From Escherichia coli (GTDB taxonomy: Bacteria; Pseudomonadota; Gammaproteobacteria; Enterobacterales; Enterobacteriaceae), in assembly GCF_003334815.1 (NCBI RefSeq), contig NZ_QOWO01000060.1: a stretch of DNA of 10,787 nt; one strand, given 5' to 3'. Below, one piece after another: positions 9,859 to 10,775 of this stretch. The position numbers and the translations under genes were made by a program. Numbering within the stretch: the stretch's first letter is position 1; each line of letters begins with the position of its first letter. The notes below the pieces were generated by a model, which was not told where the DNA came from, did no database searches, and saw only the letters and a list, made by a program, of their open reading frames with translations.

Positions 9859-10689
9859 TTATGCGGTCAATAATCGTCCGGGATTATCGATACAGAGTTT
9901 TTTGAGGATCGTTTTATCGACGCCGCGCTCCGCCAGATAGGCCAGAAAAACATCTGGAACAAATCCCCAGCCATTACCGCCATTTTTAGCCCACATTTGT
10001 TTAAGGAAGACATCGTGGCTGAGAACAAGCTGATCGGCGTATCCCAACTCAATGAGATGAGCGACGGCATCGGCAGTCTCCTGCACCCCTGGCGCTATTC
10101 CCTCTTTCGGGAAGGTAATGTCTAGGCCAATCATGTCGAATTCCAGCCAGACACCCTTATCAAGCATTTTCCGCTGATACGCCACGTCTTTTCCTGACGG
10201 ATCCGAGTGTGCGAGAGAGACTTTATTTGGCGAGACGCCCATTTCACCTAACACAATGTCGAGTACTTCATCACCGCGACGAAGCCAGCCCGGCATGTGA
10301 ATATTCATCGCCACATGAGGATTGTTAATCTGTGCCAGCGAGGCAGCCCGCAAGCTGTTATGCTCGGCTTCGGTAAATGTCGGTGAGACACCTATTTCAC
10401 CGATCATTCCGGCACGAATATCCGTATCGCCAATCCCTTGATTCAATTCTTTATCAATCGTTGCCGCCAGTTCATCAACCGTTTTATGAATTCTCTGGCT
10501 TTCAAATTTTTCCAGGTAGGGACCGGAGGAAGCAACAATATTCAGACCTGTTTTTAATGCGACTTCTCGTAATGCCTGCGCATCTCGTCCGATAGACTCA
10601 GACCCTGTGGCATCAACAATGGTGCGACCACCGAGCGAGATAAAGTTATTAATTTCGAAGATCACATCTTCAATAGGTTTGCGGTCCAT
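9859..10689 (-). CDS. Phosphotriesterase-family (PTE/Php-like amidohydrolase) protein, apparently missing the N-terminal His-x-His region
   Basis: 276-aa ORF with ...GGRTIVDATGSESIGRDAQALREVALKTGLNIVASSGPY...IRAGMIGEIGVS...LSHDVFLKQMWAKNGGNGWGF...NPGRLL, which aligns to E. coli Php from about residue 45 onward as I recall it. ATG 10689 is the only in-frame start; a stop lies in frame at 10743..10741. Confidence 0.65.
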   Translation of the reverse strand: MDRKPIEDVIFEINNFISLGGRTIVDATGSESIGRDAQALREVALKTGLNIVASSGPYLEKFESQRIHKTVDELAATIDKELNQGIGDTDIRAGMIGEIGVSPTFTEAEHNSLRAASLAQINNPHVAMNIHMPGWLRRGDEVLDIVLGEMGVSPNKVSLAHSDPSGKDVAYQRKMLDKGVWLEFDMIGLDITFPKEGIAPGVQETADAVAHLIELGYADQLVLSHDVFLKQMWAKNGGNGWGFVPDVFLAYLAERGVDKTILKKLCIDNPGRLLTA

Positions 10690-10775
10690 ATTATCAGCGC
10701 AGCAATAAGGTGATCTTACCCAGCAATAGTGGACACGCGGCTAAGTGAGTAAACTCTCAGTCAGAGGTGACTCAC

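What the first reader, a model, noticed from the sequence alone, without database searches (positions are those of the whole stretch)
9859..10740. Phosphotriesterase-family gene appears to have lost its N-terminal metal-binding His-x-His region
The only available start (ATG 10689) gives a protein that aligns to Php-type enzymes from roughly residue 45, so the N-terminal G-x-T-L-x-H-E-H-L segment is missing. Upstream on the same strand, two short frames read VSTIAG and then GKITLLLR in different frames, which looks like the original N-terminus (xxxG.TL...) disrupted by a 1-bp insertion and a deletion covering the HEH codons. The gene is therefore probably a pseudogene or encodes a catalytically impaired protein.
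Basis: partly seen in the sequence, partly recalled or inferred. Interest (0 to 1): 0.3.

Follow-up and report, generated by a model that had tools for sequence, protein, structure and literature searches.

The report
IS3-truncated phosphotriesterase-family pseudogene in E. coli
This is the leftover 3' four-fifths of an E. coli esterase-type (phosphotriesterase-family) gene whose first 61 codons, including two essential metal-binding histidines, were replaced by the end of an IS3 insertion sequence; it is an ordinary pseudogene that is already annotated as such.

Summary
The phosphotriesterase (PTE)-family reading frame at 9859-10710 (- strand) lacks its N-terminus and the H-x-H metal-binding motif, and ATG 10689 is the first available start.

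The proposed cause, a 1-bp insertion plus a small deletion, is wrong. Window 10711-10787 is the outermost 77 bp of an IS3 insertion sequence, 100% identical to independent IS3 copies. Homology to the intact gene begins at the very next base, at codon 62 of a 344-codon gene. "VSTIAG" lies wholly in IS3. "GKITLLLR" is the last IS3 bases followed by PTE codons 62-66 read out of frame.

An intact 344-aa allele (99% identical) sits at the same chromosomal site, beside cobUST, in other E. coli. Among 5426 complete E. coli genomes:
- 2090 have uninterrupted sequence across the breakpoint.
- 492 carry this exact IS3 junction.
- None carries the reciprocal junction, so codons 1-61 are deleted, not displaced.

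The remnant keeps four of six metal ligands (E166, H199, H229, D294). It has lost H23/H25 and barrel strand beta-1. NCBI's PGAP annotation pipeline already labels it [quoted passage not shown].

Verdict: a real but ordinary, already annotated IS-generated pseudogene. Interest is low.

The parts
9859..10710 (-). Remnant of a phosphotriesterase-family (Pmi1525-like) gene: codons 62-344 plus the stop codon. It is a pseudogene that lacks codons 1-61.
   Evidence: The alignment to the intact 344-aa E. coli protein P0002 (99% identity) starts at P62. DNA identity to the intact locus L002 starts exactly at window 10710. The remnant matches Pfam PTE model positions 28-297 of 298. PGAP annotates the identical sequence as 'phosphotriesterase-related protein; incomplete; missing N-terminus'.
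9859..10689 (-). Longest ORF left in the remnant (276 aa). It starts at ATG 10689, which is Met69 of the intact protein. No Shine-Dalgarno-like sequence and no promoter-like site lies upstream within the window.
   Evidence: ORF list. An in-frame TAG lies inside IS3 11 codons upstream of P62, and there is no ATG, GTG or TTG before 10689. The upstream bases are CTGCGCTGATAAT-ATG. The promoter scan found no site between 10690 and 10787 on the - strand.
10711..10787 (+). Outermost 77 bp of an IS3 element. It holds the left terminal inverted repeat, TGATCTTACCCAGCAATAGTGG..., and the transposase orfA start ATG at 10776-10778. The element is read away from the PTE remnant and runs off the end of the window.
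   Evidence: It is 77/77 identical to IS3 copies on many plasmids. The flanks of independent copies diverge exactly at the TGA. A complete 1258-bp copy (L005) has matching inverted repeats and a 3-bp target duplication. K-12 annotates 'insertion sequence:IS3A' over the same sequence. PGAP annotates an IS3 family transposase here.
10396..10398 (-). Codon for Glu166, the retained bridging metal ligand (equivalent to Php Glu125).
   Evidence: The column is invariant in alignment A3. Php numbering was checked.
10297..10299 (-). Codon for His199, a retained metal ligand (equivalent to Php His158).
   Evidence: The column is invariant in alignment A3.
10207..10209 (-). Codon for His229, a retained metal ligand (equivalent to Php His186).
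   Evidence: The column is invariant in alignment A3.
10012..10014 (-). Codon for Asp294, a retained metal ligand (equivalent to Php Asp243).
   Evidence: The column is invariant in alignment A3.
9825..9851 (.). GC-rich 12-bp-stem hairpin just past the PTE stop codon, between the PTE remnant and the convergent ggt fragment. It looks like a terminator.
   Evidence: Terminator scan.
9536..9819 (+). Context: a C-terminal fragment of a gamma-glutamyltransferase gene, itself a pseudogene, convergent with the PTE remnant. It is also present next to the intact PTE allele.
   Evidence: PGAP annotation of the identical sequence in L001. Window 7124-10710 aligns to the intact locus L002 at 98.1% identity.

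Best explanation
The feature is a 5'-truncated pseudogene of a Pmi1525-like member of the phosphotriesterase family, an amidohydrolase-superfamily metal-dependent esterase. It lies in the mobile-element-rich island beside cobUST on the E. coli chromosome.

Shown: the left end of an IS3 element abuts codon 62. Codons 1-61 are gone, and in identical-junction genomes so are the upstream genes of the cluster.

Inferred: IS3 either inserted between codons 61 and 62 and a later deletion removed its right end together with the gene's 5' part and the upstream DNA, or an IS3-associated adjacent deletion produced the junction directly. The order of events is not resolved.

What remains has no promoter of its own, no ribosome-binding site and no beta-strand 1. 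It also lacks His23/His25, the pair of residues that help hold one of the two catalytic metal ions (the alpha metal). It is therefore expected to be non-functional.

Because the IS3 has lost its right end, it is presumably immobile. The junction is inherited vertically as one allele, found in about 9% of complete E. coli genomes.
For: 1. Breakpoint. Protein and DNA alignments place the start of homology exactly at window 10710, which is codon 62.
2. IS3 identity. Window 10711-10787 is 100% identical to IS3 left ends. The terminus is validated by independent copies with unrelated flanks and by a complete 1258-bp copy with a 3-bp target duplication.
3. An intact allele exists at the same chromosomal site, ldtA-cobT-cobS-cobU ... 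PTE ... zinc-ribbon genes (L002).
4. Population counts in 5426 complete genomes: 2090 are uninterrupted across the breakpoint, 492 have this junction, 0 have the reciprocal junction of PTE N-terminus to IS3 right end, and 536 have the far-side junction of the truncated IS3.
5. In L001, which is 100% identical to the window over 9800-10787 and 99.9% over 4598-10787, the IS3 ends at about nt 1120 of 1258, and none of L002 4215-8183 is present.
6. Ligands. H23/H25 are lost. E166/H199/H229/D294 are retained and invariant.
7. Structure. The AlphaFold model of the intact protein (pLDDT 92.6) shows that residues 1-61 form an N-terminal hairpin, barrel strand beta-1 (residues 19-24) and two short helices.
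8. No promoter-like site was found upstream within the window.
9. PGAP independently calls it a pseudogene that is missing its N-terminus.
Against: The window ends 77 bp into IS3. The state of the far side in this particular genome is therefore inferred from genomes identical over the window, not observed.

The remnant ORF is otherwise undamaged. It differs from intact alleles at only 3 synonymous and 3 non-synonymous sites, and at two of the three non-synonymous sites the window carries the residue shared with the other-species orthologs. Sequence decay therefore gives no independent support for loss of function.

Transcription reading out of IS3 cannot be excluded by sequence alone.

The left boundary of the replaced segment is not clean. 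The comparator L002 carries an IS2-like fragment there, so the size of 'the deletion' cannot be stated exactly.
Confidence: 0.95

Rival explanations
1. One reading: the N-terminus is still present upstream but is scrambled by a 1-bp insertion near 10720 and a short deletion of the HEH codons.
For: The translations VSTIAG and GKITLLLR do exist in the other two frames. They superficially resemble 'xxxG.TL'.
Against: The real N-terminus is MKDYLQTVTGPVAREDMGLTLPHEHLFNDL.... Its DNA shows no similarity to window 10711-10787. Those 77 bases are 100% IS3. The TLLLR part is PTE codons 62-66 read out of frame.
Confidence: 0.01
2. A natural short isoform: orthologs normally start at the equivalent of ATG 10689 and work without the HxH segment.
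For: None. Some short E. coli gene calls appear.
Against: The orthologs aligned from other genera all carry L-x-H-E-H, and the other-species hits listed at near-full query coverage are 339-364 aa. The short E. coli entries that I inspected all start at Met1. They are truncated or fused at the C-terminus, or carry an internal deletion.
Confidence: 0.01
3. The remnant is expressed, for example by read-out transcription from IS3, as a 276-aa protein with a residual or new role such as a mononuclear-metal or binding-only protein.
For: The ORF is intact and four ligands remain. From memory and untested here, IS3 has been reported to act as a mobile promoter (Charlier et al. 1982).
Against: - No promoter-like site and no Shine-Dalgarno sequence lie upstream.
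- IS3 orfA is transcribed in the opposite direction.
- A (beta/alpha)8 barrel without strand beta-1 is unlikely to fold.
- The other genes of the cluster are deleted in identical-junction genomes.
Confidence: 0.03
4. Assembly artefact: a chimeric join of an IS3 repeat to the gene.
For: IS copies are classic sites of misassembly.
Against: The identical junction occurs in 492 independently sequenced complete genomes. The matching far-side junction occurs in 536.
Confidence: 0.005

Closest known systems
Pmi1525 of Proteus mirabilis (PDB 3RHG / 4QSF), an amidohydrolase-superfamily PTE-family esterase
   Same: The intact E. coli allele aligns with it end to end (1-344 to 1-344, E=8.9e-174), including the long insert after the HxH motif. 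The literature cites Pmi1525 as a PTE-family protein with metal-stimulated esterase activity. [quoted passage not shown]
   Different: The window copy lacks residues 1-61 (beta-1, HxH). It is a gene fragment, not an enzyme. No activity was tested here.
E. coli Php / YhfV (PDB 1BF6), phosphotriesterase homology protein
   Same: It belongs to the same Pfam family and has the same six-ligand binuclear site. Ligands align column for column: H12/H14/E125/H158/H186/D243 with H23/H25/E166/H199/H229/D294. The Php ligand numbers come from my memory of the 1BF6 paper.
   Different: It is only 31% identical. It is a different paralogue at a different locus, and Php lacks the roughly 25-residue insert after HxH.
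IS3 (1258 bp, IS3 family), for example IS3A of K-12 interrupting eaeH
   Same: The 77 terminal bases, the inverted repeat and the position of the orfA start are identical. It is the same kind of event, gene disruption by IS3.
   Different: Only the left end is in the window. In identical-junction genomes the element has lost its right end and the flanking target DNA, so it is a fixed scar rather than a simple insertion.

Membership tests
Phosphotriesterase family (Pfam PF02126; amidohydrolase superfamily) | Significant match to the family profile | tested here: met
   PF02126 at E=4.6e-43, but only model positions 28-297 of 298.
Phosphotriesterase family (Pfam PF02126; amidohydrolase superfamily) | H-x-H metal ligands at the end of beta-strand 1 | tested here: not met
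   H23/H25 of the intact protein lie in the missing 61 codons.
Phosphotriesterase family (Pfam PF02126; amidohydrolase superfamily) | Bridging carboxylate (Glu or carboxylated Lys, strand 4), two His (strands 5 and 6) and Asp (strand 8) | tested here: met
   E166, H199, H229 and D294 are present and invariant in 18 aligned sequences.
Phosphotriesterase family (Pfam PF02126; amidohydrolase superfamily) | Complete (beta/alpha)8 barrel | tested here: not met
   In the model of the intact protein (pLDDT 92.6), strand beta-1 is residues 19-24, which are absent from the remnant.
Phosphotriesterase family (Pfam PF02126; amidohydrolase superfamily) | Metal-dependent hydrolase activity | not testable with these tools
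   This needs expression and an enzyme assay.
Pmi1525-like subgroup | Collinear, high-identity match to Pmi1525 over the full length | tested here: inconclusive
   The intact allele P0002 meets it: 1-344 aligns with 1-344 at E=8.9e-174. The window copy covers only residues 62-344.
IS3 insertion sequence | Terminal inverted repeat starting with TG, identical to reference IS3 | tested here: met
   77/77 identity. The terminus is defined by independent copies with unrelated flanks.
IS3 insertion sequence | orfA start about 65 nt inside the left end, reading inward | tested here: met
   The ATG at window 10776 is IS3 nt 66. It matches the annotated CDS start in L005 and L006.
IS3 insertion sequence | Full-length 1258-bp element with both inverted repeats and a 3-bp target duplication | tested here: inconclusive
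   The window ends inside the element. In the identical-junction genome L001 the element stops at about nt 1120 and has no right inverted repeat. A complete copy with a 3-bp duplication was seen only elsewhere, in L005.

The most novel reading that the evidence does not exclude
The whole four-gene cluster (DeoR-HTH/PfkB kinase fusion, GATase1-like, YdcZ transporter, Pmi1525-like esterase) may be undergoing repeated, independent inactivation in E. coli. The evidence is the IS3 5' truncation seen here, C-terminal fusions and an internal deletion in other strains, and split upstream genes even beside the intact esterase. That pattern would point to active selection against an uncharacterised mobile catabolic pathway rather than neutral decay. 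A second possibility is that the remnant is expressed from IS3 read-out.
Probability: 0.07. Interest if true: 0.3.

Novelty: already known. Interest (0 to 1): 0.08.

Why it matters
It matters little beyond correct annotation. The locus should be labelled as an IS3-truncated pseudogene, not as a frameshifted gene or a possible sequencing error. The junction is a stable marker shared by about 9% of complete E. coli genomes, so it could serve as a lineage marker. The intact allele belongs to a small conserved cluster whose physiological substrate is unknown. That cluster, not this remnant, is the part worth any further study.

Tried and rejected
- **L001 extra insertion:** I used the 1.3-kb insertion that L001 carries relative to the window (about 4600) as a possible filled/empty IS3 pair. 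It turned out to be IS2 with a 5-bp duplication, so it says nothing about the IS3 terminus.
- **K-12 IS3A:** the K-12 annotation starts 3 nt further in, and that copy has GCC instead of TGA. I therefore defined the terminus from other copies.
- **Reciprocal junction:** I searched for PTE codons ...61 joined to the IS3 right end. No genome has it.
- **Promoter scan:** nothing was found upstream of the remnant.
- **Literature:** I tried to read the two Raushel-lab papers on Rsp3690 and Pmi1525. They are not held in the library, so I cite only their titles and a secondary mention.
- **Unassigned bases:** I tried to assign the 132 bp between the shared left flank and the truncated IS3 in L001. They match nothing in the loci held.
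- **Deletion size:** I tried to state an exact size. I dropped this because the comparator L002 has an IS2-like fragment at the left boundary.
- **A wasted search:** one protein-mode search of 'plasmids' served only to verify my recalled Php sequence.

Full report
**What is in the sequence.** On the - strand, an ORF runs from ATG 10689 to a stop at 9859 (276 aa). Its product is a phosphotriesterase-family protein: it matches Pfam PF02126 at E=4.6e-43, but only over model positions 28-297 of 298. Frame 0 of the - strand reads ...VSTIAG* and frame 1 reads ...GKITLLLR**. In the gene's own frame there is a TAG 11 codons upstream of window 10710, and no ATG, GTG or TTG before ATG 10689.

**Where the window comes from.** Window 9800-10787 is 100% identical to many complete E. 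coli chromosomes. In strain NCTC86 (locus L001) the region lies next to ldtA-cobT-cobS-cobU, in an island full of IS remnants. NCBI's PGAP pipeline annotates, in order:
- an IS3 family transposase (incomplete, missing its C-terminus);
- 'phosphotriesterase-related protein; incomplete; missing N-terminus';
- a gamma-glutamyltransferase fragment;
- an ISL3 pseudogene, zinc-ribbon genes and an IS110 pseudogene.

The PGAP pseudogene starts at the equivalent of window 10710, upstream of the ATG.

**The intact gene and the breakpoint.**
- A protein search found a 344-aa E. coli protein that is 99% identical (P0002, a cluster of 2862 member sequences). It also found 343-351-aa orthologs in Salmonella, Klebsiella, Budvicia, Providencia and others.
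- In the alignment, the window's frame starts at Pro62 (...ALKHD|PYCCADNMDRK...). ATG 10689 is Met69. All full-length proteins carry MGLTLPHEHLFNDL at residues 17-30.
- P0002 is encoded at the same chromosomal site in another E. coli (L002: ldtA, cobT, cobS, cobU ... PTE ... zinc-ribbon genes).
- At the DNA level, identity between the window and L002 begins exactly at window 10710 (CCT TAT TGC ...). Upstream of that the two sequences are unrelated.

**What the upstream bases are.**
- Window 10711-10787 (+ strand: TGATCTTACCCAGCAATAGTGGACACGCGG...ATGACAAAAACA) is 77/77 identical to IS3 copies, and 1663 plasmid records cover at least 80% of it.
- Independent copies on a Salmonella plasmid (L005) and a Shigella plasmid (L006) have unrelated flanks that diverge exactly at the TGA.
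- L005 is a complete 1258-bp element with matching terminal repeats and a 3-bp target duplication, tag...tag.
- K-12's annotated 'insertion sequence:IS3A' covers the same sequence from its 4th base.

So 10711 is the outermost base of the IS3 left inverted repeat, and the orfA start is at 10776, reading away from the PTE remnant. It follows that VSTIAG is entirely IS3. GKITLLLR is the last ten IS3 bases followed by PTE codons 62-66 out of frame. The 'extra G near 10720' is a normal IS3 base.

**Deleted, not displaced.** Counts among 5426 complete E. coli genomes:

| Test | Genomes |
|---|---|
| Uninterrupted ancestral sequence across the breakpoint (at least 80% of a 140-nt probe) | 2090 |
| The window's IS3/PTE junction | 492 |
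| Predicted reciprocal junction (PTE ...codon 61 joined to the IS3 right end) | 0 |
| Far-side junction of the truncated IS3 | 536 |

In L001 the IS3 runs from nt 1 to about nt 1010, has a small internal defect, and ends at about nt 1120 of 1258. It therefore has no right inverted repeat. None of L002 4215-8183 is present in L001. That segment holds an IS2-like fragment, a DeoR-HTH/PfkB gene, a GATase1-like gene, YdcZ and PTE codons 1-61.

The whole rearrangement thus behaves as one inherited allele. The order of events is inferred and not resolved: either insertion and then deletion, or an IS3-associated adjacent deletion. The left boundary is complicated by an IS2-like fragment in the comparator.

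**What the remnant has lost.**
- I aligned the intact protein, the remnant, E. coli Php (my recalled sequence, verified at 99.7% over 292 aa) and 15 diverse homologs.
- The Php ligands H12/H14/E125/H158/H186/D243 (numbers from my memory of the 1BF6 paper; residue identities checked) correspond to H23/H25/E166/H199/H229/D294.
- The last four are invariant and present in the remnant. H23/H25 are missing only from the remnant.
- From established knowledge of PTE-family binuclear sites, the HxH pair together with the strand-8 Asp holds the alpha metal.
- An AlphaFold model of the intact protein (pLDDT 92.6, pTM 0.91) shows that residues 1-61 form an N-terminal hairpin, barrel strand beta-1 (residues 19-24) and two short helices. 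The remnant starts just before helix alpha-1 (residues 74-86).
- No sigma-70-like promoter was found upstream in the window, and the bases before the ATG have no Shine-Dalgarno motif.

**Comparison with known proteins.** The closest solved structure is Pmi1525 of Proteus mirabilis (3RHG/4QSF), collinear over 1-344 at E=8.9e-174. Next is Rsp3690 of Rhodobacter sphaeroides (3K2G, E=2.7e-67). Both are cited as PTE-family proteins with metal-stimulated esterase activity (PMC5341072). In other Enterobacteriaceae the gene is the last of a four-gene unit next to relaxase and other mobile-element genes: DeoR-HTH/PfkB fusion (402 aa), GATase1-like, YdcZ (321 aa) and PTE.

**Sequence decay.** The remnant differs from L002 and L003 at 3 synonymous and 3 non-synonymous sites. 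At two of the non-synonymous sites (93 and 260) the window carries the residue shared with all the other-species orthologs. The remnant has therefore not visibly decayed further. That fits a relatively recent event and does not by itself indicate selection.

**Verdict.** This is an IS3-generated 5'-truncated pseudogene, already annotated as such in hundreds of RefSeq genomes. It is ordinary and of low interest.

Noticed in passing
window 4598-4602 (L001 18191-19521): Strain NCTC86 carries an IS2 insertion with a 5-bp target duplication (CCTGT). The window has the empty site, so this is an IS2 presence/absence polymorphism inside the same island.
   Followed up: partly
L002 4991-7998, compared with L009 3977-7001: Even next to the intact PTE allele, the upstream E. 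coli genes look broken. The DeoR-HTH/PfkB fusion (402 aa in L009) is split into 147-aa and 241-aa ORFs. YdcZ (321 aa in L009) is split into 202-aa and 116-aa ORFs. The whole cluster seems to be decaying in E. coli.
   Followed up: partly
proteins P0010, P0018, P0027, P0034, P0051: Other E. coli alleles of the same gene carry different lesions. P0010 has an internal 29-residue deletion. P0018 is fused at the C-terminus to a DUF987 ORF and P0034 to a YjcZ-like ORF. P0027 and P0051 are truncated at the C-terminus. P0001 and P0003 have transposase-derived ORFs reading into an intact gene from upstream. Together these suggest repeated, independent rearrangements at this locus.
   Followed up: no
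L004 1427-1429 (K-12 IS3A in eaeH): K-12's IS3A has GCC where other IS3 copies have the terminal TGA. Its annotated element is 1255 bp, starting 3 nt further in, so this copy has a variant or damaged left tip.
   Followed up: no
L001 10870-11001: 132 bp between the shared cobU-side flank and the truncated IS3 match neither the intact locus, IS3 nor the window. Their origin is unknown.
   Followed up: partly
window 1644-3287 (-), 623-1477 (-), 131-622 (-): By eye, from the ORF translations only, these are a repeat-rich autotransporter-like ORF (547 aa, apparently without a beta-barrel domain) followed by YeeR-like and RadC-like ORFs. This is typical CP4-44-type island content.
   Followed up: no
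window 5980-6966 (-) and about 7828-9447 (+): Two more dead transposase genes lie in the island. PGAP annotates the identical sequence in L001 as an IS110-family gene and an ISL3-family gene, each with an internal stop. Zinc-ribbon protein genes sit at 7134-7544 and 5578-5970.
   Followed up: no
L007 5776-6923: On a metagenome contig, an IS3-family transposase (HTH_Tnp_1 plus rve) sits directly upstream of an intact PTE ortholog and replaces the upstream genes of the cluster. This looks like another independent IS event at the 5' side of this gene.
   Followed up: no
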